Positions 9,515 through 54,311 of a stretch of 64,000 nucleotides of DNA are shown piece after piece. The stretch's first letter is position 1. Every line of letters begins with the position of its first letter. The DNA lies in contig DAOMPM010000006.1 in NCBI GenBank assembly GCA_035444805.1, positions 1,069 to 65,068 of the forward strand, written 5' to 3'. This DNA is from Luteimonas sp. Lineage in GTDB: Bacteria > Pseudomonadota > Gammaproteobacteria > Xanthomonadales > Xanthomonadaceae. Both the position numbers and the translations under genes were made by a program. The notes beneath the pieces are model-generated. The model saw nothing but the letters and a program-made list of their open reading frames with translations, did not search any database and was not told the DNA's origin.

Positions 9515-9588
9515 AATCTCGGTCCTGGCCGGACCGTCCGGCAATCGCCGGTGTGTGCATCGGAACAGTCCTCGGGAGGGACCGGATC

Positions 9589-25380: not shown

Positions 25381-26202
25381 ATGGCGATCGATGCATCCAG
25401 CGAATTGAAGGCCATGGTCGACGCCGCCCGCGCGGCTGGCGAGGGACTGCTGCGGCATTTTTCGCAGCTCGCCGACCTGGAGGTACAGACTAAGGCCGGC
25501 CCGACCGACCTGGTGTCGATTGCCGATGAAGAGGCCGAACGCACCGTGCGTTCGCTGCTGGCGGCGGCGCGTCCCGCGTACGCGTTCCTCGGCGAGGAGA
25601 GCGGCATCGGCGGCGGCGGTGACCTTTCGCAGTGCTGGATCGTCGACCCGCTCGACGGCACCACCAACTTCCTGTTCGGTGGTCCACTGTGGGGCGTGAA
25701 CGTCGCGCTGGCGCGCGACGGCGAGGTCGTCGCCGGCGTGACCTACCTGCCGGTGCACGATGAACTGTTCGTCGCCGAGCGCGGCAAGGGCGCGTGGCTG
25801 GGCAACCGCCGCATCCGGGTATCGACCCGCCGCACGCTGATCCAGAGCGTGCTCGCCTGCGGCATCCCCTACGCCGACAAGCCCGACCACCCGGTCTTCG
25901 CCAGGGAGATGGCGCTGCTCAGCGCCAAGGTCGCCGGCATCCGGCGCACCGGCGCCTGCTCCATCGACATGGCGTACGTCGCGGCCGGGCGCTGGGACGC
26001 GTACTGGGAACGTGCGCTCAACGCCTGGGACATGGCGCCGGGCGTGATCCTGGTCGAGGAGGCGGGCGGCATCGCGACCTCGGTCACCGGCGCCGCGCTT
26101 GACCTGGACGCAGGCAACGTCTGCGTCAGCAACGGAGCGATCCACACCGCTCTGCTCGACCGGCTCAACGAAGCGCTCCACCCGGGGGAGAACACAACAT
26201 GA
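25381..26202 (+). CDS. Inositol monophosphatase family protein
   Basis: GEESG, WIVDPLDGTTNF, WDMAPG motifs. Confidence 0.93.
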   Translation: MAIDASSELKAMVDAARAAGEGLLRHFSQLADLEVQTKAGPTDLVSIADEEAERTVRSLLAAARPAYAFLGEESGIGGGGDLSQCWIVDPLDGTTNFLFGGPLWGVNVALARDGEVVAGVTYLPVHDELFVAERGKGAWLGNRRIRVSTRRTLIQSVLACGIPYADKPDHPVFAREMALLSAKVAGIRRTGACSIDMAYVAAGRWDAYWERALNAWDMAPGVILVEEAGGIATSVTGAALDLDAGNVCVSNGAIHTALLDRLNEALHPGENTT

Positions 26203-27641
26203 AGCTGCAGCGCCGTACCTTCCTCGCCGCGACCGGACTGGCCGGCATGTTCGGGGCCATGCCCAGGGTGCTGGCCAGGGCGCTCGGCTATCCGCGGGCA
26301 CTTCAGGGCCCGATGCTCGGCGCACCGGGCCCGCACCAGCTGTCGGTCTGGGTGCGCGCCAGCGGCGCCTTCGAAGTCCTGCTGGAAGTCGCGGCCGACC
26401 GCGAGTTCCGGCGCGTGGTGCAGACCGCGAGCGCGGTGGCGTCGCCGGAGGACGACTGCTGCCTGGTGCTGCGCGCCGAAGGCCTGCAGCCCGACACCGA
26501 CTACTGGTACCGCCTGAAGTACGACGGCGTCGGCGACCGCTACCAGTTCCTGCCGCACCGCGCCAGGACCGCGCCGGCGGGCGCGGCTGCGTTCCGGGTC
26601 GCATTCGGCTCCTGCTGCCGCATCCAGTACGACCCGCAGCAGCGCATCTGGAACACCGTCCGCGCGCTCGAACCGGACATGTTCCTGTGGCTCGGCGACA
26701 ACATCTACGCCGACAGCGACCAGCCCGCGGCGATCACCGATCTCTACGCCCGAGGCCGCGTGGTGCCGAACCTGGAGCCGCTGCTGCGCTCGGTGCCACA
26801 GCTGGCCACCTGGGATGACCACGATTTCGGCTACAACGATTCCGACGGCCTCAATCCGGTCAAACGCGAGTCGCTGCGCATCTTCAAACGCTTCTGGGCG
26901 AACCCGTCCTACGGCGAGCGGGACAATCCAGGCATCTACTTCAAGCAGCACTATGGCGGCGTCGATTTCTTCGTGCTCGACGGGCGCTACCATCGCGATC
27001 CGACCGACAGGCCCGACAACGCGGGCAAGACCATGCTCGGCGCCAGGCAGAAGGCCTGGCTCAAGCGCGAGCTCAAGGCCAGCACCGCGCCGTTCAAGGT
27101 GCTCGCGATCGGCGGCGGCTGGTCGTCGGCCGAAAACGAGAAGGGCGGCGATTCGTGGGCGGTCTACATGACCGAGCGCAACGAAATCTTCGACTTCATC
27201 CGCGACCAGGACATCGGCGGCGTAGTCTGCATCTCCGGCGATTCGCACATGGGCGAGCTCAACTGCGTTCCGTGGTCGGAGCGCGGCGGCTACGACATCT
27301 ACGACCTGTGCTCGTCGCCGCTGGCGCAGATGCCCGCGTCCAAGCACACCCGCCAGGCCCCGGAAGTACGCGTGCGCGATGTATGGACGCGGTCGGTGAA
27401 CGTCGGCCTGCTGCACTTCGACCTGACCGGGGCCACGCCAACACTCACCTGCACCCTGCACGACGATCTGAGCGAGGCGGTGTGGGAGCCGCTGGTGCTC
27501 ACCCCCGACGACCTGAAGAACGGCGCCCGCACCTGGGACAGCAAGTCAGACCCAGTGGAACTGCAGCGGCTGGAGCGGTTCAGGCGCGGCGGCGGCTACT
27601 ACGGCTTCGATCCGCCGGAGGGCTGGCCCGGGGCCCGTTAA
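26199..27641 (+). CDS. phoD: PhoD-family alkaline phosphatase with Tat signal
   Basis: RRTFLA twin-arginine signal; FGSC, WLGDNIYAD, TWDDHD, LDGRY, ISGDSH motifs; ATGA overlap with IMPase. Confidence 0.85.
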   Translation: MKLQRRTFLAATGLAGMFGAMPRVLARALGYPRALQGPMLGAPGPHQLSVWVRASGAFEVLLEVAADREFRRVVQTASAVASPEDDCCLVLRAEGLQPDTDYWYRLKYDGVGDRYQFLPHRARTAPAGAAAFRVAFGSCCRIQYDPQQRIWNTVRALEPDMFLWLGDNIYADSDQPAAITDLYARGRVVPNLEPLLRSVPQLATWDDHDFGYNDSDGLNPVKRESLRIFKRFWANPSYGERDNPGIYFKQHYGGVDFFVLDGRYHRDPTDRPDNAGKTMLGARQKAWLKRELKASTAPFKVLAIGGGWSSAENEKGGDSWAVYMTERNEIFDFIRDQDIGGVVCISGDSHMGELNCVPWSERGGYDIYDLCSSPLAQMPASKHTRQAPEVRVRDVWTRSVNVGLLHFDLTGATPTLTCTLHDDLSEAVWEPLVLTPDDLKNGARTWDSKSDPVELQRLERFRRGGGYYGFDPPEGWPGAR

Positions 27642-27811: not shown

Positions 27812-29854
27812 CTAGCCGCCCACACTACGGCGAAGAGTGACCAGCACCTGCCCCGGCGTGCGGTGGCTGCGGGTTTCGCGCTCGTCCAGCGGAACCTGCG
27901 CACGCAGGCCGTCGTACTTGTCGCGCGCCTCGGAGAAGCGGCGCCCGAACAGATCGCGCATTTCGGCGCGCACGCGCCAACCGCCACCCAGGCGCTTTTC
28001 CGCGAACACGTTCCAGGACAGGTCGTCACGCTCGTGCCTGACCTCGTCATGGCTGTATTTGGTCTCGCGCTCGGCCAGCTCCAGTTCAATGCCCCAGGTC
28101 ATGCGCTGGGCAGGCAGGATCTGCGTCAGCCTGATCCGACCTTCCAGCGGTGACTCGCCCGAGATCCCGCGGGTCTCGTTGGTGGTCGGGTCGACCACCG
28201 AGCTGGTCCGCCACAGCATCTTCGAGGAAAGCCGGAACCCGGTCATCCCGATCCTGTCCAGCGATCCCGACAGTTCCAGTTCGAGCGTGTCGCGCCGACC
28301 GTCCCCGATGTTGCCCGGTGCGTCGTACACGTCCTCGCCGGACACCACCGGCACGCGATCGACGACATCGCTGATGCGCTCGTGGGTCCACGTCACGCCG
28401 AGCGCGCCATCCTCGCCGAAGCTCCGCTCCCAGCCGGCGACCAGGCGCCAGGTCTTGTCCGGCTCCAGTTCCGCATTACCGGCGCTGACCACGCCGGTGT
28501 CGAGCGCGGCCGAAGCGACGAAGTCCCCGAAGTCCAGCTGCCCCACCTCGCGCGACAGTCCCAGGTGGAACCCGTTCCGGTCGTCGCGCTCCCAGTACCC
28601 GGTCAGCCGCGGCTTGAAGTAGACGAAGTCACGCTCCATCGGCGTATCGCCGCTTTGGCGCAGGGCGGACGTCTCGACCCTCACGCCGGCCTCGACGGTC
28701 AATGCCTTGGCCGGCTGCCACGCTGCAGCGAGCATCGCCTCCGCCCGCCGCTCCTCGATCCGCACATCCGAACCGGGCAGATCGATCCGCTCGCCGTTCT
28801 CGCTCAGGCGCGCCTGGCTTTCGAGGAAGTTGAACGCACCCTCCAGTCCTGCCGACAGGCGCAGCCGCGGGGACCACTCGCGGCCCAACTCGACCCGCAG
28901 CAGGGTCTCGCCGCTGTCGGTATCTTCCTCGAAGCGCTCCTCGTCGTCGTCCTCGTGCGACAGGGACAATGCCTGCAGTCGCCCCAGCCGCTGGCTGGCC
29001 ATCAGTTCCAGCCGCGAGTGCTCGCCGAGGTGGCGCACGTAGCGCCCGCCGATCTCGAACTCCCGCGTGTCCTCGGTGTCATCCGCGATTTCGGTGCGCG
29101 TGCCGGTGGCGCGATCGAATCGCGTCATGGCCTCGTCGACGCGCTCGCCGCGCAACGCGGCGTTGACCCCGAGGCTGCCGCCAGCCAGCGGCTGCCGCCA
29201 GCTGGCGCTGGATCCGTACACGTCGTTGACCCGGCGGGTCCGGGTGTCCAGGTCTTCCAGCAGCGCACCGTCGGGCGCGAAGGCGCGGATCCTGCCCGGC
29301 CCCGTGTCGTCGTCCAGCTCCCGCTCCGCCGACAGCGCGAATTCCAGCACCCGGTCGTCGCGTCGGCGCCCGTACTCGAATTGCCCTTGCGGACCGGCCC
29401 AGCCATCGCTGGCGATCGCGACGCCAAGCTGCGTCGCCATTTCCGAGGTGGCCGCCCGTTCGCGCACCACGTTCGCCAGCACCGCGTGGCCGCCCATGTC
29501 GATGCCGGGCGCACCGCCACGGATCACTTCGATGCGCTCCACCGAAGCGGCCGGAATCCGCTGCAGCAGGCTGACGATATCCTCGCGCCGACTGGTGGGC
29601 TGGGCACCGTCGATCAGCACGTTGCCGCGCGCGCCCGCGTAGCCGCGCACGTCGGTATCGGCCTCGACGATGCTGAAACCGGGCAGGCGCAGCACCATGT
29701 CATGGGCGTTGGCAGGCGCAGCCGCGGCAAAACTGTCGGCCTCGTATACGGTCACGCCCTGGGTCTCCGGCGCGGACCCATTGTCCTGCGCCGTGCACGG
29801 CGATGCCGCAAGCGCGAGCAAAAGCAGGGGAACAAGGGATAAGCGGTCCGGCAT
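27812..29854 (-). CDS. TonB-dependent receptor-like outer membrane protein
   Basis: Signal peptide; plug-like LRLPGF...RG..GNVLIDG...IPAASVERIEVIRG; GNAELEP; beta-strand patterning. Confidence 0.8.
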   Translation of the reverse strand: MPDRLSLVPLLLLALAASPCTAQDNGSAPETQGVTVYEADSFAAAAPANAHDMVLRLPGFSIVEADTDVRGYAGARGNVLIDGAQPTSRREDIVSLLQRIPAASVERIEVIRGGAPGIDMGGHAVLANVVRERAATSEMATQLGVAIASDGWAGPQGQFEYGRRRDDRVLEFALSAERELDDDTGPGRIRAFAPDGALLEDLDTRTRRVNDVYGSSASWRQPLAGGSLGVNAALRGERVDEAMTRFDRATGTRTEIADDTEDTREFEIGGRYVRHLGEHSRLELMASQRLGRLQALSLSHEDDDEERFEEDTDSGETLLRVELGREWSPRLRLSAGLEGAFNFLESQARLSENGERIDLPGSDVRIEERRAEAMLAAAWQPAKALTVEAGVRVETSALRQSGDTPMERDFVYFKPRLTGYWERDDRNGFHLGLSREVGQLDFGDFVASAALDTGVVSAGNAELEPDKTWRLVAGWERSFGEDGALGVTWTHERISDVVDRVPVVSGEDVYDAPGNIGDGRRDTLELELSGSLDRIGMTGFRLSSKMLWRTSSVVDPTTNETRGISGESPLEGRIRLTQILPAQRMTWGIELELAERETKYSHDEVRHERDDLSWNVFAEKRLGGGWRVRAEMRDLFGRRFSEARDKYDGLRAQVPLDERETRSHRTPGQVLVTLRRSVGG

Positions 29855-29921: not shown

Positions 29922-29938
29922 TGTCAGCCCGTTGTCAG
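29922..29938 (-). promoter_or_regulatory. OmpR-type direct repeat CTGACA-N5-CTGACA
   Basis: + strand TGTCAG-CCCGT-TGTCAG, 11 bp phasing, between divergent TBDR-3 and PepSY genes. Confidence 0.5.
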
Positions 29939-29962: not shown

Positions 29963-30292
29963 ATGAACACGACCTCCTCCCGTCCCAGGCACGTCCTCCC
30001 GCTCGCGCTTGGCCTCGCGCTCACGGCTCTCTTCGCCCCGGCCATCCAGGCTGGCGACGACGACCACATCGAAGCGCGCCGGCTGCTCCAGCGCGGCGAG
30101 ATCCTGCCGCTCAACCATATCCTCCAGATCGTGCAGCGTCGCGTGCCAGGCGACGTCATCGATGTGGAGCTGGACCGCAGCAGCAAGCACGGCTGGGAGT
30201 ACGAGGTGAAGGTGCTGACCTCGACCGGGCGCGTGCTGGAAGTCGACCTCAACGCCCGCACCGGGGAAATCCGCAAGATCGAGGACGACTGA
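29963..30292 (+). CDS. PepSY domain-containing secreted protein
   Basis: Signal peptide; GEILPL...VPGDVIDVELD...YEVKVL..GRVLEVDLNARTGEI. Confidence 0.88.
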   Translation: MNTTSSRPRHVLPLALGLALTALFAPAIQAGDDDHIEARRLLQRGEILPLNHILQIVQRRVPGDVIDVELDRSSKHGWEYEVKVLTSTGRVLEVDLNARTGEIRKIEDD

Positions 30293-30960
30293 TGCGTTGC
30301 CTCGTCGTCGAGGACGATCCCGACATCCAGGCCGACCTGAGGCACGGGCTCGAGGCTTCGGGTTTCGCAGTCGATACCGCCGGCGACGGCAGGGACGCCT
30401 GGTTCCTCGGCGACACCGAGGACTACGACGCCGTGGTCCTCGACCTCGGCCTGCCGCAGCTCGACGGCCTGTCGGTGCTGCGACGCTGGCGTTCGGCCGG
30501 CCGCGCTTTCCCGGTCATCGTGCTCTCGGCCAGGGGCGACTGGACCGAGAAGGTGGAAGGCATCGAGGCCGGCGCGGACGACTACATGGGCAAGCCGTTC
30601 CAGATGGGCGAACTGCTCGCACGCGTGCGCGGACTGACCCGGCGCGGTGCCGGACGCACCAGCAACGTCGTCGCCGTCGGCAGGCTGCGGTTGGACACGG
30701 CGCGGATGAGCGCCACCTTCGACGGTGCACCGGCGCAGCTGTCGCCGCTGGAATTCCGGCTGCTCGACCACCTCGCCCACTCGCCGGACCGCCCGGTGCC
30801 CGCCGGGGAGCTCGCCGAACAGCTGTATGGCGTCGGTGACGCCGATGCCGGCGACACCAATGCCATCGAGGCCATCGTCGCCCGGCTGCGGCGCAAGTTC
30901 GGCGCCAGGATCATCGCCACCCGGCGCGGATTCGGCTACCTGCCAGGCGATCCGTCGTGA
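30292..30960 (+). CDS. OmpR-family response regulator
   Basis: LVVEDD, DLGLPQLDG, GADDYMGKPF, winged-helix IEAIVARLRRK/TRRGFGY. Confidence 0.93.
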   Translation: MRCLVVEDDPDIQADLRHGLEASGFAVDTAGDGRDAWFLGDTEDYDAVVLDLGLPQLDGLSVLRRWRSAGRAFPVIVLSARGDWTEKVEGIEAGADDYMGKPFQMGELLARVRGLTRRGAGRTSNVVAVGRLRLDTARMSATFDGAPAQLSPLEFRLLDHLAHSPDRPVPAGELAEQLYGVGDADAGDTNAIEAIVARLRRKFGARIIATRRGFGYLPGDPS

Positions 30961-32303
30961 TCACGCGCTCGCTGCACTGGCGTCTGCTGGCGGGCGCCGC
31001 GGCGGCGATCCTGCTGGCGCTGTGCGTGGCCTGGGCGTTGATGACGCTGCTGTTCGAACGGCACCTCGAGCGCAGGCTCGAAAGCGAGCTCACCCGCGAC
31101 GGGCTGCGCCTGGTCGCCGCACTGGAGCTTGATGCCGGCGGCGCACCGCTGGTCGAGCCGGTGCCGATGGACCCGCGCCTGCAGACGCCCGCGGGCGGCT
31201 ACTACTGGCAGGTGTCGACGCCATCCGGCGCCGCACGCTCGCGTTCGCTGTGGGATGCCGACCTGCCCGCGCGCGATACCGCGCCGACCGACGACTGGAA
31301 GCTGCGGCACCAGGACGGTCCGTTCGGCGAACCCATCTCGCTGCTCGAGCGCGTGGTCGCGCCGGACGCCGGCGGACCCGACGTGCTGGTGCAGCTGGCG
31401 CAGGATCGTGCGCCGCTCACCGCCGCACGCGACGAATTCGGCCGCGAGCTGGCGCTGTTCCTGTTCGCGCTGTGGCTGGTGCTGTCGGCGGCTGCGTGGC
31501 TGCAGGTTCGCCTCGGCCTGCGCCCGCTGCGCCGCATCCGCGGCGACCTGGATCGGCTGCGCGACAGCGCACAGGCGCGGCTACCGGAAGCACACCTGCG
31601 CGAGATCCAGCCGCTCACCGAGGCGATCAACTCGCTCGCCGACGCGCGCGAAAACGACCTCGACCTCGCCCGGCGGCGCGCCGGCGACCTCGCGCACGGG
31701 CTGAAGACGCCGCTGTCGGCGATCGCCGCGCAAAGCCGCCGCGCGCGGGAAGACGGTGCCGCCCAGGCAGCCGACGGGCTGGATCGCGCCGTCGCGGCCA
31801 TGCGCCGCACGATCGATTCCGAACTGGCGCGAGCTCGGATCGCCGCAATCAGACGCGGCCCTGGCGGATCGAGCCAGGTGCGAACGACGGTGGAACGCCT
31901 GGTCAACGTGATCGAGCACACGGACCAGGGCGGGCAACTGGCGTTCAGTATCGACATCCCGGGCACGCTGGAGCTCGCCGTGCAACCGGACGACCTGTCC
32001 GAAATCATCGGCGCGGTGCTGGAGAACGCCTCCCGCCATGCCCGGCGACACGTGCGAATCAGCGGAGCCGCCGGTCCCGAATGGACCACGCTGAGCGTGG
32101 AGGACGATGGGCCGGGCATCAGCGACGACCGGCTTGTGCAAGTGATGGAGCGCGGCGGCAGAATGGACGAGAGCGGAACCGGGCTGGGGCTCGCGATCGC
32201 GCGCGACCTGACCGAGGCCACGGGGGGACGCATCCGCCTCTCGCGTTCCGGACTGGGCGGATTCGCCGTCGTCTTCATCTGGGGCCCGGCCTCGCCCGAA
32301 TGA
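30957..32303 (+). CDS. Sensor histidine kinase
   Basis: Two TM helices, HAMP, H-box DLAHGLKTPL, N-box LENA, DDGPG, GTGLGLAI. Confidence 0.93.
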   Translation: MITRSLHWRLLAGAAAAILLALCVAWALMTLLFERHLERRLESELTRDGLRLVAALELDAGGAPLVEPVPMDPRLQTPAGGYYWQVSTPSGAARSRSLWDADLPARDTAPTDDWKLRHQDGPFGEPISLLERVVAPDAGGPDVLVQLAQDRAPLTAARDEFGRELALFLFALWLVLSAAAWLQVRLGLRPLRRIRGDLDRLRDSAQARLPEAHLREIQPLTEAINSLADARENDLDLARRRAGDLAHGLKTPLSAIAAQSRRAREDGAAQAADGLDRAVAAMRRTIDSELARARIAAIRRGPGGSSQVRTTVERLVNVIEHTDQGGQLAFSIDIPGTLELAVQPDDLSEIIGAVLENASRHARRHVRISGAAGPEWTTLSVEDDGPGISDDRLVQVMERGGRMDESGTGLGLAIARDLTEATGGRIRLSRSGLGGFAVVFIWGPASPE

Positions 32304-32349: not shown

Positions 32350-32367
32350 CTGACATTTTCCTGACAG
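32350..32367 (+). promoter_or_regulatory. OmpR/Pho-type direct repeat CTGACA-N5-CTGACA
   Basis: CTGACATTTTCCTGACAG about 105 bp upstream of the metallophosphoesterase start. Confidence 0.5.
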
Positions 32368-32472: not shown

Positions 32473-33759
32473 GTGCAAGTTGCGTCCACCCTTCTGCTGT
32501 CCATGGCAAGCCTGGGCCTTGTCGCCGCATTGCCGCCCGCTGCCTCCGCGGCGGGGCCCGATGCCCGCGCTCCTTCATTCGTGGTCTTCGGCGACAGCGG
32601 CTACATCCCCTCCTACTACGAACTCGACGACGACGAACCGCCGATGCGCACGATCGGCGAGTACATGGCCATCGAAGTGGAAGAGTGGCTGGAGCGCAAC
32701 CCGTCGCTGGAAGGCTTCACGCCGACGCCGTGGACGTTCGAAACGGCAATGGGCAGCTACTTCCAGGCCAGCGGCATGTACCCGGTGGCCTGGGCCATGG
32801 ACGAGTACTGCAGGACCTGGAACTGCGACTTCGCGGTGATGCTGGGCGACAACATCTATCCCGACGGTGCCACCCTCGGCGCCGATGGCATTTCGGATGA
32901 ACGGCGCTTCAGGCAGATGCTCGATCAGCCGTTCGGCGCGTTCGGTGCCGGCACCCCCGGCTTCACCATCTACTCGATGCTGGGCAACCACGACTGGCGA
33001 ACCTCGCGCGAAGCCGTCTACGCACAGATGCGCTATCTCCAGCAGCATCCCAACTTCCACATGCCCGCCCTGTTCTATCGCGTCATTCCACCGGGGTTCG
33101 AGGGACAGGTGGAGATGTTCGTCATCGACACCGAAGTCCTGCTGGCCGGCACCACGGTGCGCAAGGACGAACTGGACGAGGAAGGCAACGAACTCGATAC
33201 CGGCAGGCTGGAGGAGTGGGATCCGCACATCAAGCCGGCCAACGCCGCCGAACGCAACATGGTTGCCTGGCTGGAAGGAGCGCTGCGCGACTCCACGGCG
33301 AAATGGAAGATCGTGTTGGGGCATCATCCGCTGTGGTCCGGTGCCGGCAGCAAGTACGAAAAGGCCCGCGCGCTGCGCGCCCTGTTCCTGCCGGTGCTGT
33401 GCCGCCACGCCGACGCCTACTTCGCCGGCGACGACCACACCATGGAGGTCTACACCGACGACTGCAGCGGGCCCGACGGCCTCGGCGAGGCCGCCGACCA
33501 GCCGCTACCGCTGCTGGTCAGTGGCGCGGCAGCGAAGTACCGCCCGCTGCACCCGAAGTTCATGGCCCAGCAGGTCGCCAACAATCCGCAGATTCGCAAC
33601 CTGTGGTCGAAGGGCCAAACCTGGGGCTTCATGCACGTCAGCATCGAGGACGACACCATGACGGTGCGCACGCTGACGACGCCCGGCGACTTCAGCGGAC
33701 GTCCCGTACTGGAGGTCGAGCACAGGTTCCCGCATCGCTCGCACGATCCAGGCCCCTGA
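32473..33759 (+). CDS. Secreted metallophosphoesterase, purple/tartrate-resistant acid phosphatase type
   Basis: GDSG, GDNIY, GNHD, GHHP, GDDH motifs; N-terminal signal peptide; GTG start with SD. Confidence 0.82.
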   Translation: MQVASTLLLSMASLGLVAALPPAASAAGPDARAPSFVVFGDSGYIPSYYELDDDEPPMRTIGEYMAIEVEEWLERNPSLEGFTPTPWTFETAMGSYFQASGMYPVAWAMDEYCRTWNCDFAVMLGDNIYPDGATLGADGISDERRFRQMLDQPFGAFGAGTPGFTIYSMLGNHDWRTSREAVYAQMRYLQQHPNFHMPALFYRVIPPGFEGQVEMFVIDTEVLLAGTTVRKDELDEEGNELDTGRLEEWDPHIKPANAAERNMVAWLEGALRDSTAKWKIVLGHHPLWSGAGSKYEKARALRALFLPVLCRHADAYFAGDDHTMEVYTDDCSGPDGLGEAADQPLPLLVSGAAAKYRPLHPKFMAQQVANNPQIRNLWSKGQTWGFMHVSIEDDTMTVRTLTTPGDFSGRPVLEVEHRFPHRSHDPGP

Positions 33760-33859
33760 GCCTGCGCGTTCCGCTCGACGCGGATCCCGCCACCGGTTGC
33801 CGGGGAAGCGCGGCATCGGGAACGGTGCCGCGCCTCGATCGCCGGCGCGCCGGGCCGAA

Positions 33860-34537
33860 TCAGTTGCCGCCGGGCACGCCCGGTTGCACCGCCCGCTGCC
33901 GATGGCCGTCGAGCGCCGCTCGAATCAGCGCCTTCGCTTCCGCTGCATCGCCGAAGCCGTTCAACACCACCGGGTTGCGGCCCTCCGGCAAGTCCTTGTA
34001 GACGCGGAAGAACGCCTCGATGCGATCGCGCTCGATCTCCGGCAGGTCGCCGATGTCGCGGATGCCGGCGTAAGTCGGATCAACCCTGTCGGCCGGCACG
34101 CCAATGATCTTCTCGTCGCGTTCGCCGCCATCGATCATGCGCAGCACGCCGATCGGGCGAAAACGGATCATCGTGCCCGGGTGCATCGGCTCGCGCGTGA
34201 GCACCAGGGCGTCAAGCGGGTCGTCGTCGCCGGCCAGGGTGCGCGGCAGCGAGCCGTAGTTGGCCGGGTACGTCATCGGCATCGACAGGAAGCGATCGAC
34301 ATGCACCAGGCCGTCCTCGCCGATCTCGTACTTGGTGAAGCTGCCCGCCGGGATTTCCACTGCGAGCAGCACTTCCTCCGGCGCAGCGTCCGGCTGTGCC
34401 GCGAGGAAGGGATGGCGGATCCCTTCACCGCGATCGGCCGCGACCGCCGGCAGCACCAGAAGCAGAGCCGGCAGCAGCGCCAACAGCACGGCCGATGCCG
34501 CGCGCGGACGCGCCGCCGGTACCGGCCTTGCCGCCAT
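33860..34537 (-). CDS. ppa: Family I inorganic pyrophosphatase with N-terminal signal peptide
   Basis: EIPAGSFTKYE, YPANYG, DDDPLD, DEKI, FFRVYK; preceded by a hydrophobic leader ending AVA-A. Confidence 0.85.
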   Translation of the reverse strand: MAARPVPAARPRAASAVLLALLPALLLVLPAVAADRGEGIRHPFLAAQPDAAPEEVLLAVEIPAGSFTKYEIGEDGLVHVDRFLSMPMTYPANYGSLPRTLAGDDDPLDALVLTREPMHPGTMIRFRPIGVLRMIDGGERDEKIIGVPADRVDPTYAGIRDIGDLPEIERDRIEAFFRVYKDLPEGRNPVVLNGFGDAAEAKALIRAALDGHRQRAVQPGVPGGN

Positions 34538-35703
34538 CAGCGCGTGCAGGCCGGCAGCGACAGCGCCGTGGCAATCCCGCGCCAGTCGAAGGCCACCGCG
34601 CCCTGGTCGTCGTGCACGGCATACAACACGCCATCGGGGAAGCGCGTGCTCGCGGCCTGGTCCAGCCAGATGCCATCGGTATTGGCAACGGTCGGTCCGG
34701 TCACCGCACCGGCGTGCGCCAGCGAGACGCGGTCGAACAGGTGGAACACCGTGCGGCCCTTGCCCTGCTCGGTGGTGATCCACCAGCCGCTGCCGTCGGC
34801 GCAGTCCTTGAGCATGATCCCTTCCGACTGCGCCTTCAGGAAATCGGCGCCGATGGTGCGCCCGCTGAACCTGCCCTCGAGGTCATAGACCTTGAGTTCG
34901 TTGGCGTACGCCTCGTCTTCCTCGGCGATCATCAGGCGGTTGTGCCCGGGATCGCCCCAGATCGACTCGACCACGCGCAGCGCACCCTCCGGCGAGGTGT
35001 CGCCGAAGGCACCGAGGTGACGCGTGGCGAAGCCTTCGCCCTCGCCCGCCATCGCGAAGCGGTGCACGCGACGGGTCAGCTCGGCCAGCGGCGGCAGGAT
35101 GTCCTCGCCCTGCGCGTCCTCGCCGGCCATGTATGCATCGGTGACGTAAAGCTCGTAGCCCGCGTCCACCTTGTGCGCCCACAGGCCGTAGGGCAGTTCG
35201 AGCACGTCGGCACCGAACATCGCCACCGCCTCCATCCCCGGCAGGCGCAGCACCTGCACCCGGCGGTTGTCGCGCTCGACCACGAACACCAGGTCATCGA
35301 CGATGGCGATGCCGTTGGGGCGGTCGAACTGGCCCGCGCCGGCGCCGCGCTCGCCGACGTGGCGCACGAACTCGCCGGTGTCGCCGTCATAGACCACCAA
35401 CCTGTGCGTGGACTTGGCGGTCGCCAGCAGCAGGATCCCGCCATCGGGCGCGGTCCAGCTGGCGACAGAGTCGATGTTGTCCTCGGGCGTCATCGGCGTG
35501 GCGAAGGCTTCGTCGACGGTCACCGCATCGCTGGTGCCTTCGCCGCGCGCTCCCTCGCGCACGAGGTCGGCGCGGTCTTCGGCGTCCGCGGCCGCTTCCA
35601 CTGTATCGGTATCGCCGGCGCCGCCGCAGGCGGCAAGCGCCAGCGCAAGTGCAGCGGCGGCCAGGACGCGCAAGTGTGCGGGTCGTGCGTGGTCGATGTT
35701 CAT
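34537..35703 (-). CDS. Divergent beta-propeller phytase-like lipoprotein
   Basis: LAAC lipobox; NIDS, RPNG, PYG, EED, SEG, EQG, NTDG, HDD motifs echo propeller phytases; TGATG overlap with ppa. Confidence 0.65.
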   Translation of the reverse strand: MNIDHARPAHLRVLAAAALALALAACGGAGDTDTVEAAADAEDRADLVREGARGEGTSDAVTVDEAFATPMTPEDNIDSVASWTAPDGGILLLATAKSTHRLVVYDGDTGEFVRHVGERGAGAGQFDRPNGIAIVDDLVFVVERDNRRVQVLRLPGMEAVAMFGADVLELPYGLWAHKVDAGYELYVTDAYMAGEDAQGEDILPPLAELTRRVHRFAMAGEGEGFATRHLGAFGDTSPEGALRVVESIWGDPGHNRLMIAEEDEAYANELKVYDLEGRFSGRTIGADFLKAQSEGIMLKDCADGSGWWITTEQGKGRTVFHLFDRVSLAHAGAVTGPTVANTDGIWLDQAASTRFPDGVLYAVHDDQGAVAFDWRGIATALSLPACTR

Positions 35704-35741
35704 CAGGTCTTCCCTCGGTAACAGCGCGCCATTCTCGGGCG

Positions 35742-35770
35742 CTGACATTTCGCTGTCATGACAATGACTC
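35742..35770. promoter_or_regulatory. Three 11-bp-phased Pho-box-like half sites
   Basis: + strand CTGACAT-TTCG-CTGTCAT; - strand reads GAGTCAT-TGTC-ATGACAG-CGAA-ATGTCAG. Confidence 0.5.
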
Positions 35771-35816
35771 ATCAGGGACACCAGGCCGCCAAGCGCCCTG
35801 CACAAGAACCTAGCAA

Positions 35817-35850
35817 CAGTCATATCCATGTAACGTCTCGATCACAAGAT
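35817..35850 (+). promoter_or_regulatory. Pho-box-like promoter of TBDR-2
   Basis: CAGTCAT-ATCC-ATGTAAC, 10 nt spacer, then weak -10 CAAGAT: canonical PhoB promoter geometry. Confidence 0.5.
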
Positions 35851-35907
35851 CCGATTCCGACGCGGACCGCAGCAGCGGCCGCACTCCGTCCGGACTCGAG
35901 AATCAAA

Positions 35908-38751
35908 ATGCCCTTCCAACGCTCACTGATCGCCGCCGCGATCGTCTCAGCGCTGTCCCTTTCGCTTGCCCAGAACGCCTCCGCCACCAGCGACCAGAGC
36001 ACCACGGTCACCGCCAGTGACAGTGCGGGCACCGTCCATGGCCAAGTCCGCGCCTCCAACGTGGGCGTCGCCCTCGACGGCGCGATCGTCACCTTGGGGA
36101 ACCGCCAGGTCGCCACCTCGGGCAACGGCAACTTCCGCCTGACCGGCGTCAGTCCCGGCCACCACCTGGTCCGCGTCGACTACCTCGGCTATGTGGCCCA
36201 GGAACTCGAGATCGAGGTCGTTGCCAACCGCGGCGCGCGCGTGGACGTGATCCTGGCCAGCACCGTCGGCGTCACCGATCTGGATACGCTCGATGTCCGC
36301 ACCGCCCGCGACGCCCAGGCCCTGGCCCTGAACCAGCAGCGCGCCTCCACCAACTACGTCAACGTGGTCTCGGCCGACCTGCTGGGCCAGTTCCCGGACA
36401 ACAATATCGCCGAGTCCACCCAGCGCATCCCCGGCGTATCGATCGAGCGCGACCAGGGCGAAGGCCGCTACGTGACCGTGCGCGGCGCGCCCAAGGAATT
36501 CACCACCGTCACCATGGACGGCGTGCAGCTGGCCAACCCGGACAACAGCAGCCGCGGCGTGGAGCTGGACACCATCCCGTCCGACGCGATCGCGGCGCTC
36601 GAGGTCACCAAGGCGCTGACTCCGGACATGGACGGTGACGCCATCGCCGGCAACATCAACATCCGCACGCAGAGCGCGCTGGACCGCGAGGGCCTGACCT
36701 TGCGCGCCTCGGCGGCCATGGGCGAGTTCGAGCTCGGCAGCGGCGCCAACGAGCGCTACAACGCCACCATCGGCAACCGCTTCGGGCCTGATGGCAACAT
36801 CGGCGTGATCATTTCCGCCTCGCGCAGCAAGCAGGAGCGCTTCACCGACAACGTCGAGGCGACGTTCGCCGACTTCGACGGCGAGATCATGCCCGAGGTG
36901 GTCGAGATCAAGGACTATGAGGGCACCCGCACCCGCACCGGGCTCACCGGCCGCTTCGACTTCCGGATCAATCCGGACCACCTCGTCTACTTCATCGCCT
37001 CCGATTCGAACTTCAAGGACCGCGAGTTCCGCGACACGCTTGCCATCGAGCTGGAGCGCCACGAAGCCGGATCGAACGACGTCAGCGGCGTCGCCGGCCG
37101 CGCCACCTTCGACAAGGAGCTGCGCGAGCGCACCTACGACAAGACGATCCGCACCTACAACCTGGGCGGCGAGCACTGGGTGGGCCAGGACTGGAAGCTC
37201 GACTGGCAGGTCGCGCAGAGCACCGCCGAGAAGACCACCAGCCCGCGCGACCAGTTCATCTTCCGCTCCACGGTGCGGCCGCGGATGGCCTACGACTACA
37301 GCAATCCCGACTTCCCGGTGTGGACGATCCTGGGCAGGGCCGACGCTCCGGCCACCGGCGTCAACCTGCCGGAGGACTGGTACGCATTCCGCCGCCTCAA
37401 CCAGCGTTACGAGTACAGCGAGGAAGAAGAGACCAGCTTCAGGCTCGACCTGGGCCGGGCGCAGACCTTCCTCGGCGAGAGCGGCGACATCAAGTTCGGC
37501 GTGCGCGCGCGCCTGCGCGACAAGATGTTCGACGACGAGCGCAGGCGCAACGGCAACGCGGGTGATTTCAACGCGCTGGGCGTCAGCTATGCCGACATGC
37601 TGCAGGACAGCTGGTCGAACAACTTCGACTACTTCCTGACCGGCCGCCGCTTCAGCCGCTACATCTTCGGCAACTACGCCGGTCCGCTGCAGCAGAGCAG
37701 CAACCACCAACTGCTGCTGGCCGATTCCACCACCGCCGACTACAGGGCCTCCGAAGACGTCTACGGCGCCTATTTCCGCATCGACGCGACCTGGGGCAAA
37801 CTGACCCTGGTCGGCGGCGCCCGCTACGAGCGCACCGAGCTGGACGGCAGTGCCGCCGAATTCAACGAGGAGACCGAAGAGTTCACCCAGCTGCACGCGA
37901 GCCGCAGCTACGGCCACTTCCTGCCGAGCGTGCACCTGCGCTACGAGATCGACCGGGACACCATCCTGCGCACCTCGTACTCCACCGGCATCAACCGCCC
38001 CGACTTCATGCACACCGCTCCCTACCGGATCATCGGCGAGAATCCGTGGGACGACATCACGGTGGGCAATCCGGACGTGGAAGCGGCCTATGCACACAAC
38101 TTCGACGTGTCGTTCGAGCGCTACCTGCGTCCGCTGGGCCTGCTCTCGGCCGCGGCCTTCTACAAGCGCATCAACGATCCGCTGTTCATTGCCAACAGCG
38201 TCGAGAGTTGGGAGGTGGTGGATCCCGACGACGGCTCGGTGGAAATCGTCAACCAGCGGATCACCCGTCCTGAGAATGGCGACAAGGGCAGCATCTATGG
38301 CCTTGAGCTGACCTGGCAGCAGACCTTCGACAAGCTGCCCGGCGCACTCAGCGGCCTGGGCATCTACGCCAACTACACCTGGGCCAAGTCCAAGGCGGAC
38401 CTGCCGTTCGGCCTGGGCGAAACCGAGCTGCCCGGCACCTCGCGCCACAACTACAACCTGGCGCTGACCTACGAGAAGGCCGGCTTCAACGCGCGCCTGG
38501 CGTACAACCGCCGCTCCGAATTCATCCAGGAGTTCAACATCACCAACCCGGAGCTCAACATCCTTTGGGATGGACGTTCGAGCCTGGACTTCACCACCAG
38601 CTACCGCTTCAGCAACGGCCTGGGCATCTTCGGCGAGGTCAACAACATCAACGACAGCCGCCAGGTCCGCTACCAGGGCGAACGCAACCGCGTGCTGGAA
38701 ATGGAGGGCTTCGGCCGCTCCTGGCTGGTCGGACTGCGCTACGACTACTGA
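35908..38751 (+). CDS. TonB-dependent receptor with N-terminal carboxypeptidase-regulatory-like extension (phytase-associated type)
   Basis: NIAESTQRIPG, DQGEGRYVTVRG, KALTPDMDGDAIAG, GNPD, C-terminal LRYDY. Confidence 0.92.
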   Translation: MPFQRSLIAAAIVSALSLSLAQNASATSDQSTTVTASDSAGTVHGQVRASNVGVALDGAIVTLGNRQVATSGNGNFRLTGVSPGHHLVRVDYLGYVAQELEIEVVANRGARVDVILASTVGVTDLDTLDVRTARDAQALALNQQRASTNYVNVVSADLLGQFPDNNIAESTQRIPGVSIERDQGEGRYVTVRGAPKEFTTVTMDGVQLANPDNSSRGVELDTIPSDAIAALEVTKALTPDMDGDAIAGNINIRTQSALDREGLTLRASAAMGEFELGSGANERYNATIGNRFGPDGNIGVIISASRSKQERFTDNVEATFADFDGEIMPEVVEIKDYEGTRTRTGLTGRFDFRINPDHLVYFIASDSNFKDREFRDTLAIELERHEAGSNDVSGVAGRATFDKELRERTYDKTIRTYNLGGEHWVGQDWKLDWQVAQSTAEKTTSPRDQFIFRSTVRPRMAYDYSNPDFPVWTILGRADAPATGVNLPEDWYAFRRLNQRYEYSEEEETSFRLDLGRAQTFLGESGDIKFGVRARLRDKMFDDERRRNGNAGDFNALGVSYADMLQDSWSNNFDYFLTGRRFSRYIFGNYAGPLQQSSNHQLLLADSTTADYRASEDVYGAYFRIDATWGKLTLVGGARYERTELDGSAAEFNEETEEFTQLHASRSYGHFLPSVHLRYEIDRDTILRTSYSTGINRPDFMHTAPYRIIGENPWDDITVGNPDVEAAYAHNFDVSFERYLRPLGLLSAAAFYKRINDPLFIANSVESWEVVDPDDGSVEIVNQRITRPENGDKGSIYGLELTWQQTFDKLPGALSGLGIYANYTWAKSKADLPFGLGETELPGTSRHNYNLALTYEKAGFNARLAYNRRSEFIQEFNITNPELNILWDGRSSLDFTTSYRFSNGLGIFGEVNNINDSRQVRYQGERNRVLEMEGFGRSWLVGLRYDY

Positions 38752-38775
38752 CCACCGCGGTCGGCAGGACGGACA

Positions 38776-38798
38776 GGCCGGGGAAACCCGGCCCTTTC
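38776..38798 (+). terminator. Probable terminator hairpin after TBDR-2
   Basis: GGCCGGG-GAAA-CCCGGCC followed by CTTTC. Confidence 0.6.
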
Positions 38799-38805
38799 GT
38801 TGGAT

Positions 38806-38887
38806 AAAACCGGGGTCAGAGTCGATTTTCCCCTGGAGCCGCCAGCTGCCGACTGGTGCCGGGAAAATCGACTCTGACCCCGGTTTT
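38806..38887. repeat. GGGGTCAGAGT-type inverted repeat element
   Basis: Perfect 27 bp IR AAAACCGGGGTCAGAGTCGATTTTCCC / GGGAAAATCGACTCTGACCCCGGTTTT. Confidence 0.9.
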
Positions 38888-38939
38888 GGCGAGCCTCCGG
38901 ATTTGATGCAGACTTCCGGCATCGCAGGCCGGAGCCACC

Positions 38940-39572
38940 ATGAAGATCGTCGAAGTCCGGCACCCGCTGGTGCAGCACAAGATCGGCCTGCTGCGCGATG
39001 CCTCGCTCAGCACCAAGGGCTTCCGCGAGCTGGTGACCGAACTGGGCACCCTGCTCGCCTACGAGGCGACCGCCGACCTGGCCACCGAACCGGCGCTGGT
39101 GCCCGGCTGGGCCGGCGAGGTGCCGGTGCGGCGCATCGCCGGCGCCAAGGTGACCCTGGTGCCGATCCTGCGCGCGGGCCTTGGCATGCTGCCGGGCGTG
39201 CTGGCGCTGATCCCGGCGGCGAAGGTGAGCGTGGTCGGCCTGCAGCGCGACGAGGAAACGCTGCAGCCGGTGCCCTACTTCGAGAAGCTGACCGGCCGCC
39301 TTGACGAGCGCGACGCGCTGATCCTCGACCCGATGCTCGCCACCGGCGGCACCCTGGTCGCCACCATCGACATGCTCAAGCGCGCCGGCGCGCGCCGGAT
39401 CCGTGGCATCTTCCTGGTCGCCGCGCCGGAAGGGCTGCAGGCGCTGGAGGCCGCGCATCCGGACGTGGCGGTCTACACCGCCGCGATCGACGAGCGGCTC
39501 AACGAGAAGGGCTACATCCTGCCGGGCCTGGGCGACGCCGGGGACCGCATCTTCGGCACGCGCATCGGCTGA
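38940..39572 (+). CDS. upp: Uracil phosphoribosyltransferase
   Basis: [39 protein letters not shown]. Confidence 0.98.
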
Positions 39573-53194: not shown

Positions 53195-53506
53195 GATGCT
53201 GATTCCTGGAGGTGGATTCGCGGTTCGCGAATCCCGGGATGGCCAAAGCCAAGTACCTCGCCGGGACGAGGCAAGATGCTCGGTGCGGAGCGTGGGAAAG
53301 TGCGGCGTGGCTGAGTGGCCGTCGCGACATTGCGTCGTGCCGCAGATGCAGCGTGCGCCTTTCGCCGTTATCTGGATGTAACAACTCCTTGTCAGGCCCG
53401 CACGCGCCGCGTGCCTGGCGGACCGTGCCAGCGGCATCAGGTGCTCACCACGGCTGCATGGCTGGCACAGGAACAACCCGAAGCACAGGAGAACTGACGG
53501 ACAAGG

Positions 53507-53659: not shown

Positions 53660-53688
53660 ATGATACGGGTGGGCGGTCCGGCGGGCAA
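53660..53688 (-). promoter_or_regulatory. Sigma70 promoter of tRNA-Phe
   Basis: TTGCCC-N17-TATCAT on the - strand. Confidence 0.65.
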
Positions 53689-53828
53689 GCCGGGCCGGGT
53701 CCGCCGGTCGTGTCCCGGCCGCCTTCAGCCAGTGGTGCGCCTGTGCGCGAGCGCCCTGCAGGCCGGCCGGCGGCCGTGCTCCGTACGTCGTAGTATGCTC
53801 CCCGCTCCCCTCGACACACGGGTTCGAC

Positions 53829-54311
53829 ATGATGCGTGGATGGCATGTGGCGGTGGCGATGCTGCTGGTGGTGGCCCTGGTGGCCTGTTCGAGCAGCGGC
53901 ATACCGCGCAGGATCTCGGATCCGGCGGCCAGCCTGCAGCAGCTGACGGTGCAGGCCGACGGCCGCTGGTCGATCGAGCTGCGGCTGCAGAACTACAGCA
54001 GCATCGCGATGCGCTTCGACAGCGTGTCGTTTGCGCTCGCCATCGACGAAGAGGACGCCGGCACGCTGGCGGCACAGCCGACGCTGACGATCGGGCCGGA
54101 GTCGGCGGACGTGGTGACGGTGGAGTTCGATCCTTCCGCCAATGCGCGCCTGCTGATGGCCGGCCGCCTCGCCGACGGCCGCGGCGTCGGCTACCGCCTC
54201 GAGGGCACGATCAATGCCGCGCCGACCGACCGCGGCAAGGCCCGCGACTACAAGGTCAAGCGCGACAGCCAGCTCAGCCCGGTGCCCGGCCTGGCCGGCG
54301 TGCTGCGCTGA
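53829..54311 (+). CDS. LEA type 2 / WHy domain lipoprotein
   Basis: LVAC lipobox; IELRLQNYS...F.S.SF.L...G...YRLEG pattern. Confidence 0.72.
   Translation: MMRGWHVAVAMLLVVALVACSSSGIPRRISDPAASLQQLTVQADGRWSIELRLQNYSSIAMRFDSVSFALAIDEEDAGTLAAQPTLTIGPESADVVTVEFDPSANARLLMAGRLADGRGVGYRLEGTINAAPTDRGKARDYKVKRDSQLSPVPGLAGVLR

What the first reader, a model, noticed from the sequence alone, without database searches (positions are those of the whole stretch)
34537..38751. Second phytase/TBDR module carries Pho-box geometry: a phosphate-starvation twin of the inositol-controlled module
Seen: a second divergent phytase-like/TBDR pair mirrors 7286-12162. The two receptors share plug motifs (DQGEGRY.TVRG, K.LTPDMD..AIAG). 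This intergenic region lacks the IolR-like palindrome. It instead has CAGTCAT-N4-ATGTAAC + 10 nt + CAAGAT (35817-35850) and three 11-bp-phased half sites (35742-35770). Established: PhoB binds CTGTCAT-N4-CTGT(C/A)A(C/T) about 10 bp upstream of -10. Inference: the same substrate class is accessed by paralogous modules, one for carbon and one for phosphorus.
Basis: partly seen in the sequence, partly recalled or inferred. Interest (0 to 1): 0.62.

Follow-up and report, generated by a model that had tools for sequence, protein, structure and literature searches.

The report
Phosphate-controlled receptor beside phytase-like gene
A Luteimonas-like bacterium has an outer-membrane receptor gene with a conserved phosphate-starvation (PhoB) promoter, back to back with a phytase-like gene whose promoter site fits a neighbouring two-component system better than PhoB; this is a solid regulon prediction, not a new kind of system.

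Summary
The real intergenic region is 35704-35907. It lies between a lipoprotein gene (34537-35703, -) and a TIGR01782 TonB-dependent receptor gene (35908-38751, +).

I built a Pho-box matrix from phoB and pstS promoters of relatives only. With it, 35817-35834 ranks 5th and 35742-35759 ranks 10th of 6.6 million genome positions.

The proximal site (box, 10 nt, CAAGAT) has the clade's PhoB promoter geometry. It has positional counterparts upstream of most receptor orthologues. PhoB activation of the receptor is therefore well supported.

The distal site reads ATGACAGcgaaATGTCAG on the minus strand. That is one mismatch from TGTCAG-N5-TGTCAG. This operator precedes all four copies of a PepSY/response-regulator/kinase operon. 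It also precedes the phytase-like gene in every complete locus that has that system, and in none without it. The phytase-like gene and its coupled secreted pyrophosphatase are therefore more likely controlled by the local regulator (30292-30960).

Module 1 has no Pho box. The lipoprotein is a six-bladed propeller whose best fold match is Bacillus phytase. It scores below Pfam's phytase threshold.

Verdict: partly supported; a new member or variant of known kinds.

The parts
35908..38751 (+). TonB-dependent receptor P0004 (947 aa): signal peptide, CarboxypepD_reg domain, plug and barrel
   Evidence: TIGR01782 at 596.6 bits (cut-off 310). Pfam Plug, TonB_dep_Rec_b-barrel and CarboxypepD_reg. 31% identical to the module-1 receptor.
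35817..35834 (+). Proximal Pho box CAGTCAT-ATCC-ATGTAAC; predicted PhoB site of the receptor promoter
   Evidence: 18.3 bits, rank 5 of 6.59 million positions, using a matrix from relatives' phoB and pstS promoters. Positional counterparts lie upstream of orthologous receptors.
35845..35850 (+). -10-like hexamer CAAGAT, 10 nt after the proximal box
   Evidence: Box, 10 nt, then -10 is the geometry of the clade's phoB and pstS promoters. Orthologues have CAGACT, CAAGGT, CAGGCT or AAAGAT at the same offset. The start of transcription near 35857 is inferred.
35742..35759 (-). Distal site. Minus strand: ATGACAG-CGAA-ATGTCAG, operator type TGTCAG-N5-TGTCAG with 1 mismatch. Plus strand: CTGACAT-TTCG-CTGTCAT, Pho box with 1 mismatch.
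   Evidence: Plus-strand score 16.4 bits, rank 10. Exact operator copies face the orthologous gene only in loci that have the PepSY/RR/HK system and precede all four copies of that operon.
35764..35770 (+). Third 11-bp-phased half-site ATGACTC (weak)
   Evidence: Together with the second half-site it scores only 10.7 bits.
35731..35759 (-). Sigma-70-like promoter ATGACA-17 nt-GAGAAT facing the phytase-like gene and overlapping the distal site
   Evidence: It is the only promoter-like match in 33700-39000, with 9 of 12 positions. The spacing from operator to -10 is 5 nt here, against 11 nt in orthologues.
34537..35703 (-). P0003, a 388-aa lipoprotein (lipobox LAAC) and six-bladed beta-propeller; NCBI names its orthologues 'phytase'
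   Evidence: AlphaFold model with pLDDT 85. Highest query TM-score, 0.63-0.64, is to Bacillus phytase 1qlg and 1poo.
33860..34537 (-). Family I inorganic pyrophosphatase with a signal peptide; its start overlaps the P0003 stop (TGATG)
   Evidence: Pfam Pyrophosphatase, E = 1.6e-47. Sequence read. The same gene order is seen in nearly all relatives.
38776..38793 (+). Terminator-like hairpin after the receptor gene
29963..32303 (+). PepSY (29963-30292), OmpR-family response regulator (30292-30960) and histidine kinase (30957-32303): the candidate regulator of the distal site
   Evidence: The RR scores nearest to QseB, PmrA, TctD and PhoP, all below their cut-offs; its PhoB score is 134.8 bits against a cut-off of 296.
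29922..29938 (+). TGTCAGcccgtTGTCAG, 24 nt upstream of the PepSY start codon: the putative autoregulatory operator
   Evidence: The same arrangement is found at C40:7887 and in genomes G008 and G009.
32350..32366 (-). TGTCAGgaaaaTGTCAG, in the gap before the secreted metallophosphoesterase gene (32473-33759, +)

Best explanation
The 204-bp region between the two divergent genes holds two promoters, each controlled by a different OmpR-family regulator.

(1) Receptor promoter. Phosphorylated PhoB binds the proximal Pho box (35817-35834) in place of a -35 element, 10 nt upstream of CAAGAT. It recruits RNA polymerase to transcribe the TonB-dependent receptor gene when phosphate is scarce.

(2) Phytase-like gene promoter. 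The phytase-like lipoprotein gene and its translationally coupled secreted pyrophosphatase gene are read from a promoter overlapping the distal site (35742-35759). That site is an operator of the neighbouring PepSY/RR/HK system (RR at 30292-30960). The same system also marks its own operon and other secreted phosphoesterase genes.

Shown:
- motif ranks in the genome;
- promoter geometry;
- conservation of the proximal box upstream of receptor orthologues;
- strict co-occurrence of the operator with the two-component system.

Inferred:
- which protein binds which site;
- whether each acts as activator or repressor;
- the signal sensed by the kinase;
- the substrates of the enzyme and of the receptor.
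For: PhoB and its regulon in this genome:
- PhoB is present at 369 bits against a cut-off of 296.
- The clade's phoB and pstS promoters share the layout box, 10 nt, -10.
- Other top matrix hits lie upstream of pstS, the OprO/P-type porin gene, a PiT operon and phoB itself, which validates the matrix.

Proximal site:
- It ranks 5th genome-wide with an independent matrix.
- Boxes stand at -81 to -139 from the start codon, followed by 10 nt and CAnnnT, in about 17 of 25 distinct orthologous receptor upstream regions. The chance rate is about 0.05 hits per kb per strand.

Distal site:
- Exact CTGACA-N5-CTG[AT]CA occurs 6 times in the genome against 0.3 expected. All six are in the window island or its paralogous copy on contig C40.
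- Among 41 related genomes, kinase orthologues occur only in G000 (two copies), G008 and G009. Each operon is preceded by an exact site.
- Among the 81 P0003 loci compared, exact sites facing that gene occur in L013, L014, L024 and L025. These are the four complete loci with the RR and HK next door. None occurs in about 70 loci without them.
- In those orthologues the operator is followed by 11 nt and TAnnnT.
- Position 7 of the repeat is G in every one of these sites. G is essentially absent at that position in the 41 training Pho boxes.
Against: - The distal site is equally one mismatch from the canonical Pho box on the plus strand (16.4 bits, rank 10). PhoB binding there cannot be excluded.
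- In the window the spacing from operator to -10 is 5 nt, not the 11 nt of orthologues. The local promoter looks like an ordinary sigma-70 promoter overlapping the site, so the regulator could repress here, or the site could be decaying.
- The -10 of the receptor promoter, CAAGAT, matches only 3 of 6 consensus positions.
- The operator before the metallophosphoesterase gene points away from that gene.
- No expression or binding data could be obtained.
Confidence: 0.55

Rival explanations
1. Both sites are PhoB boxes, and the whole divergent pair (receptor, phytase-like gene and pyrophosphatase) is one PhoB-activated phosphate-starvation module. The distal box serves as an upstream or divergent PhoB site.
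For: - Both sites score in the genome's top 10 on the same strand.
- Orthologues of the phytase-like gene in genomes without the local two-component system carry canonical PhoB-type boxes facing them, with box, 10 nt, then CACAAT or CAGAAT.
- Alternatively they are co-transcribed behind a receptor whose promoter has a Pho box, in 38 of 50 loci.
- The OprO/P-type porin Pho box in this genome also contains a CTGTCAG half-site.
Against: - On the plus strand the distal box has no -10 at the right distance. It lies 149 nt from the receptor start codon and only 38 nt from the other gene's start.
- Its positional counterparts in loci with the two-component system are exact TGTCAG-N5-TGTCAG sites.
- That motif is otherwise confined to the two-component operons and their islands.
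Confidence: 0.28
2. All the direct repeats in the region, including the proximal one, belong to the local PepSY/RR/HK regulon. PhoB plays no part, and the island is a self-contained unit responding to some other cue.
For: - The operator and the Pho box share the TGTCA core and the 11-bp period, so cross-recognition is conceivable.
- The island carries its own regulator and several secreted phosphoesterase genes.
Against: - The proximal site has T and C at position 7 of its two repeats, as PhoB boxes do. It resembles the pstS-type box CTGTCAT-N4-ATGTAAC of relatives.
- Counterparts of the proximal site are present upstream of receptor orthologues in genomes that lack the two-component system altogether.
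Confidence: 0.1
3. The matches are chance or relic sequences with no regulatory role. The genes are expressed constitutively or under unrelated control.
For: - The -10 elements are weak.
- The spacing at the distal site departs from that of orthologues.
Against: - Two top-10 genome-wide hits fall within 93 bp of each other on one strand.
- The window-wide expectation is 0.54 matches.
- The sites are conserved in position across many orthologous loci whose intergenic DNA is otherwise unalignable.
Confidence: 0.05

Closest known systems
PhoB-dependent promoters of the Pho regulon (E. coli pstS, phoA and phoB; Pho box CTGTCAT-N4-CTGTCAT lying 10 bp upstream of the -10)
   Same: - Two 7-bp direct repeats with a 4-bp spacer, and a 10-nt gap to a -10-like hexamer with no -35.
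- A PhoB orthologue is present.
- The same layout is seen in this clade's own phoB and pstS promoters.
   Different: - The second repeat is ATGTAAC, as in the clade's second pstS copy, rather than CTGTCAT.
- The -10 is CAAGAT.
- The target is a TonB-dependent receptor gene.
- Binding and induction are untested.
Caulobacter crescentus PhoB regulon, which includes several TonB-dependent receptors and a phytase (PMC11208175)
   Same: PhoB controls outer-membrane receptors and phosphoesterases, including a phytase, for alternative phosphorus sources.
   Different: - Different lineage and different proteins.
- Here the enzyme gene appears to have passed to a second regulator in a subset of genomes.
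Beta-propeller phytases (Bacillus PhyC/TS-Phy, PDB 1qlg and 1poo; Pfam PF02333) and Xanthomonas oryzae PhyA (Chatterjee et al. 2003, cited in PMC9403785)
   Same: - Six-bladed propeller; the best query TM-score, 0.63-0.64, is to Bacillus phytase.
- Many invariant acidic residues.
- The protein is exported.
- Databases name the orthologues phytase.
   Different: - About 18% identity to Bacillus phytase.
- Pfam Phytase score below its cut-off.
- A profile search of PDB sequences finds only NHL repeats.
- Orthology to Xoo PhyA rests on my memory and was not tested.
- No activity data.
Autoregulated OmpR/PhoB-family two-component systems with tandem hexamer operators (such as PmrA/PmrB, PhoP/PhoQ and QseB/QseC)
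   Same: - An OmpR-family RR with a sensor kinase.
- A direct-repeat operator with 11-bp period in front of its own operon and of a small local regulon.
   Different: - No family model reaches its cut-off.
- The operator core TGTCA mimics the Pho box.
- A PepSY protein leads the operon.
- The signal is unknown.
- The regulon consists of secreted phosphoesterases.

Membership tests
PhoB-dependent (Pho box) promoter | Two 7-bp direct repeats, 4-bp spacer, matching the Pho box of the organism's own clade | tested here: met
   With a matrix built from relatives' phoB and pstS promoters, the sites score 18.3 bits (rank 5) and 16.4 bits (rank 10) of 6.59 million positions.
PhoB-dependent (Pho box) promoter | Box lies about 10 bp upstream of a -10 hexamer and replaces the -35 | tested here: met
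   Met for the proximal site: 10 nt, then CAAGAT, and the same offset in orthologues. Not met for the distal site on the plus strand.
PhoB-dependent (Pho box) promoter | The genome encodes PhoB | tested here: met
   TIGR02154 at 369 bits, cut-off 296, at C54:13166-13840, with a Pho box upstream of the gene itself.
PhoB-dependent (Pho box) promoter | The site is conserved in orthologous promoters | tested here: met
   About 17 of 25 receptor-orthologue upstream regions have a box on the coding strand at -65 to -139 from the start codon. All 18 divergent intergenic regions have at least one hit of 11 bits or more.
PhoB-dependent (Pho box) promoter | PhoB~P binding and induction on phosphate limitation | not testable with these tools
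Beta-propeller phytase (PF02333) | Pfam Phytase score above the gathering cut-off | tested here: not met
   18.9 bits against a cut-off of 21, E = 8.4e-4, covering residues 246-327 only. Some orthologues do carry a precomputed PF02333 hit.
Beta-propeller phytase (PF02333) | Six-bladed propeller fold like Bacillus phytase | tested here: met
   Model pLDDT 85. Against 1qlg and 1poo: E about 1e-11 to 1e-12, TMq 0.63-0.64, the highest TMq in the list. NHL propellers score similar E-values.
Beta-propeller phytase (PF02333) | Calcium-binding catalytic residues and phytate hydrolysis | not tested
   I only noted that many acidic residues are invariant across the family. No residue-by-residue mapping and no assay.
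TonB-dependent receptor, TIGR01782 subfamily | Plug and 22-strand barrel, with subfamily model above cut-off | tested here: met
   TIGR01782 at 596.6 bits (cut-off 310). Pfam Plug and TonB_dep_Rec_b-barrel.
Regulon of the local PepSY/RR/HK system (operator TGTCAG-N5-TGTCAG) | The operator precedes the system's own operon wherever the system occurs | tested here: met
   4 of 4 operons: window 29922, C40:7887, G008 and G009. The kinase is absent from the other 38 related genomes, which lack the pattern apart from five single hits.
Regulon of the local PepSY/RR/HK system (operator TGTCAG-N5-TGTCAG) | The operator faces the phytase-like gene only where the system is present | tested here: met
   Exact sites in L013, L014, L024 and L025, all with the RR and HK adjacent, and none in about 70 loci without them. 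The window's site has 1 mismatch.
Regulon of the local PepSY/RR/HK system (operator TGTCAG-N5-TGTCAG) | Operator at the spacing seen in orthologues (11 nt to TAnnnT) | tested here: not met
   In the window the -10-like GAGAAT lies 5 nt after the operator.

The most novel reading that the evidence does not exclude
In a subset of Luteimonas and Pseudoxanthomonas genomes, a PepSY-led two-component system has taken over the promoter of a phosphorus-scavenging operon. Its operator copies the TGTCA core and the 11-bp period of the Pho box, but has G at position 7. The operon (phytase-like propeller, purple-acid-phosphatase-like enzyme, secreted pyrophosphatase) is PhoB-controlled in most Lysobacteraceae. 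The neighbouring receptor gene stays under PhoB. This would be a natural case of regulon hand-over between paralogous response regulators through a one-base change in operator specificity. It would add a second, still unknown signal to phosphate-starvation control.
Probability: 0.4. Interest if true: 0.6.

Novelty: new member of a known kind. Interest (0 to 1): 0.42.

Why it matters
The result gives a concrete, testable promoter map for how a soil bacterium of the Lysobacteraceae switches on uptake and breakdown of organic phosphorus.

- One gene of a divergent pair is predicted to answer to PhoB, the other to a local two-component system.
- The phytase-like gene with a linked TonB-dependent receptor is predicted to be a widespread Pho-regulon member in Lysobacteraceae, including Stenotrophomonas.
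- The receptor partner has been swapped repeatedly during evolution.
- If the hand-over between regulators is real, it offers a small natural system for studying how closely related response regulators keep their regulons apart.

Tried and rejected
- A first matrix refinement slid by one half-site onto the A-rich spacer and pseudo-third repeat of the phoB and pstS promoters. It gave misleading minus-strand scores. I rebuilt it in register and left out this genome's own promoters.
- A plain consensus-mismatch scan missed most boxes in orthologous loci. The matrix found them.
- I looked for a canonical layout (box, 10 nt, -10) facing the phytase-like gene in the window and found none. Only ATGACA-17 nt-GAGAAT overlaps the site.
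- I considered that the HK and RR at 30292-32303 might be PhoR and PhoB. Rejected: the true PhoB is on contig C54, and the local RR scores 134.8 bits against the cut-off of 296.
- I considered that the plug motifs are generic to this receptor subfamily. Rejected for this genome, where only three receptors carry them. The third receptor type linked to this gene in relatives does not match them.
- A profile search of PDB sequences did not link the lipoprotein to phytases; it found NHL repeats only.
- Literature searches found no paper on this module in Lysobacteraceae.
Full report
**What is there.** The genome is Luteimonas-like: 3.3 Mb, 69.5% G+C, and the closest named match of the lipoprotein is L. 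arsenica at 91% identity over the aligned part. The finding's coordinates are the limits of two maximal ORFs. Signal peptides fix the real starts. The lipoprotein P0003 runs 34537-35703 on the minus strand (MNIDHARP...LALAAC). The receptor P0004 runs 35908-38751 on the plus strand (MPFQRSLIAAAIVSA...). The intergenic region is therefore 35704-35907. P0004 is a TIGR01782 TonB-dependent receptor (596.6 bits, cut-off 310) with an N-terminal CarboxypepD_reg domain. A secreted family I pyrophosphatase gene (33860-34537) starts inside the P0003 stop codon (TGATG), so the two are co-translated.

**Is P0003 a phytase?** By sequence, only weakly.
- Pfam Phytase gives 18.9 bits, below the 21-bit cut-off.
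- BLASTP against phytase-1 finds a 25% match over 114 residues.
- A family profile searched against PDB sequences finds NHL repeats only.

The fold supports the label better. An AlphaFold model built on 30 homologues has pLDDT 85 and is a six-bladed propeller. Its highest query TM-scores, 0.63-0.64, are to Bacillus phytase 1qlg and 1poo, although NHL propellers score similar E-values. NCBI names the orthologues 'phytase'. I call it phytase-like. Its activity, and its orthology to Xanthomonas oryzae PhyA (Chatterjee 2003, cited in PMC9403785), are untested.

**The 'mirror' claim.** Module 1 holds a true two-domain phytase (PF02333, E = 7e-126) and a receptor, next to iolG, an RpiR-type regulator, iolC, iolD, iolB, iolA and an MFS carrier. 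The two receptors are 31% identical. In relatives, a third receptor type linked to the same gene is equally distant from both, at about 31-32% identity. The two modules are thus related in kind, not recent twins.

**Pho boxes: the test.** The genome has a bona fide PhoB (369 bits against a cut-off of 296). A scan for CTGTCAT-N4-CTGTCAT found only three sites with up to one mismatch:
- one upstream of a secreted alpha/beta-hydrolase-like gene;
- one upstream of the OprO/P-type porin gene, which is divergent from pstS;
- window 35742-35759.

I then collected phoB and pstS upstream regions from 40 relatives. They share a clear layout: repeat 1 (7 bp), 4 bp, repeat 2 (7 bp), 4 bp (often AAAA), a pseudo-third repeat, then the -10. 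In short, the box is followed by 10 nt and TxxAAT. A matrix from 41 unique sites, leaving out this genome's own promoters, ranks 35817-35834 fifth (18.3 bits) and 35742-35759 tenth (16.4 bits) of 6.59 million positions. Both are on the receptor's coding strand. Other top hits lie before the second pstS copy, the porin gene, a PiT operon, a glycosyltransferase gene near phoB, and phoB and pstS themselves, so the matrix finds real phosphate genes. Module 1's intergenic region scores at most 4.3 bits.

**The proximal site is a PhoB promoter for the receptor.** The sequence CAGTCAT-ATCC-ATGTAAC, GTCTCGATCA, CAAGAT has exactly the clade's geometry. It closely resembles a relative's pstS box, CTGTCAT-CGGG-ATGTAAC. 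Upstream of distinct receptor orthologues (52-85% identity) whose intergenic DNA is otherwise unalignable, about 17 of 25 have a box on the coding strand. Most lie 91-105 or 128-139 nt from the start codon. Each is followed after 10 nt by CAGACT, CAAGGT, CAGGCT, CACAGT or AAAGAT. The chance rate is about 0.05 hits per kb per strand.

**The gene family as a whole.** I examined 80 Lysobacteraceae loci carrying the P0003 family.
- 18 loci, counting the window, have the divergent P0004-type receptor. All 18 intergenic regions have at least one hit of 11 bits or more.
- 50 loci have a different receptor upstream on the same strand. In 38 of them a box lies before that receptor, against 0.5 expected.

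A tree shows that the receptor partner switched at least eight times. The flanking upp and pyrophosphatase genes stay in place.

**The distal site fits another regulator better.** I tested this.
- The exact pattern occurs six times in the genome against 0.3 expected. Three copies are in the window (29922, 32350, 35742). Three are on C40, which carries a paralogous copy of the island: the MFS, inositol monophosphatase (IMPase) and PhoD-like genes, PepSY-RR-HK, two purple-acid-phosphatase-like genes and a secreted pyrophosphatase gene.
- Read towards the target, the motif is TGTCAG-N5-TGTCAG. It shares the Pho-box core, but position 7 is always G. That base is essentially absent at this position in the training Pho boxes.
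- Among 41 genomes, kinase orthologues exist only in this genome (twice), G008 and G009. Each of the four operons has an exact site just upstream of the PepSY gene.
- Among the 81 loci, exact sites facing P0003 occur in L013, L014, L024 and L025. These are the four complete loci with the RR and HK adjacent. No exact site occurs in about 70 loci without them. L012, whose contig ends before that position, has a one-mismatch copy.
- In those loci the site is followed by 11 nt and TAnnnT.
- Loci without the system have PhoB-type boxes facing P0003 (box, 10 nt, CACAAT), or P0003 is co-transcribed behind the other receptor.
- The window's site, ATGACAGcgaaATGTCAG, is the positional counterpart with one mismatch.
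- The local RR (30292-30960) is an OmpR-family protein nearest to QseB, PmrA, TctD and PhoP, with none above cut-off. It is not PhoB.

**Caveats.** The distal site is also one mismatch from the Pho box on the other strand, so binding by PhoB, or by both regulators, remains possible. In the window a sigma-70-like promoter, ATGACA-17 nt-GAGAAT (35759-35731), overlaps the site. It is the only such match in 5.3 kb. It puts the -10 only 5 nt after the operator, not 11 nt, so the regulator's effect here (activation or repression) cannot be read from geometry. The operator at 32350 points away from the metallophosphoesterase gene it precedes. No expression data were available.

**Comparison with what is known.** PhoB control of TonB-dependent receptors and a phytase is established in Caulobacter (PMC11208175). 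From my own knowledge, adjacency of beta-propeller phytase genes and receptor genes has also been noted before (Lim et al. 2007). The receptor promoter is therefore a new member of a known kind. The apparent split of a divergent pair between PhoB and a look-alike local regulator is a variant worth testing. I found no paper describing it.

**Verdict.** Phosphate-starvation control of the receptor is likely; my confidence in PhoB at the proximal site is about 0.8. The phytase-like gene is probably under the local two-component system rather than PhoB. My confidence in the full two-regulator model is about 0.55.

Noticed in passing
genome contig C40:1-12000 (outside the window): A paralogous copy of the window island. 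It holds the MFS, inositol monophosphatase (IMPase) and PhoD-like genes, PepSY-RR-HK (78-87% identical to the window's), two purple-acid-phosphatase-like genes and a second secreted pyrophosphatase gene. Three exact TGTCAG-N5-TGTCAG sites lie at 3218, 3311 and 7887.
   Followed up: partly
loci L001-L080 compared with window 33860-35703: In most relatives a gene of about 1.5 kb for a purple-acid-phosphatase-like protein sits between the phytase-like gene and the pyrophosphatase gene. I identified it in G009 (locus L186); elsewhere I only saw the gap. In the window that gene is missing and the two genes overlap (TGATG).
   Followed up: partly
loci L001-L080: The receptor next to the phytase-like gene has switched between a divergent P0004-type and a co-directional, unrelated TIGR01782 type at least 8 times on the gene tree. 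The flanking upp and pyrophosphatase genes stay fixed.
   Followed up: partly
genome C12:33841-33858: The only perfect CTGTCAT-N4-CTGTCAT in the genome lies 70 nt upstream of a secreted protein I read as alpha/beta-hydrolase-like (361 aa). It is a likely uncharacterised Pho-regulon member.
   Followed up: no
genome C54:7901-7918: A Pho-box-like site, CCGTCATCGCGCCGTCAT, lies upstream of a glycosyltransferase-like gene a few kb from phoB. This may reflect phosphate-sparing lipid remodelling.
   Followed up: no
genome C97 end and C74 start: The two contigs share their terminal sequence and so join. Joined, they give a divergent pair, OprO/P-type porin gene and pstS, with separate Pho boxes for each direction. 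A second pstS copy with its own box follows.
   Followed up: partly
window 53365-53382 (+): A Pho-box-like site, CCGTTATCTGGATGTAAC (14.1 bits), about 300 nt upstream of the ORF at 53664-54311. The gene was not identified.
   Followed up: no
window 9460-9520: The module-1 intergenic region has an A+T-rich stretch with AGAAAAATTCT and GGAATCTTTGTTCG (close to GGAA-N6-TTCC).
   Followed up: no
window 27812-29854 (-) and 26103-27641 (+): A third TonB-dependent receptor gene and a PhoD-like phosphatase gene flank the PepSY operon. The same order is seen in genome G008.
   Followed up: partly
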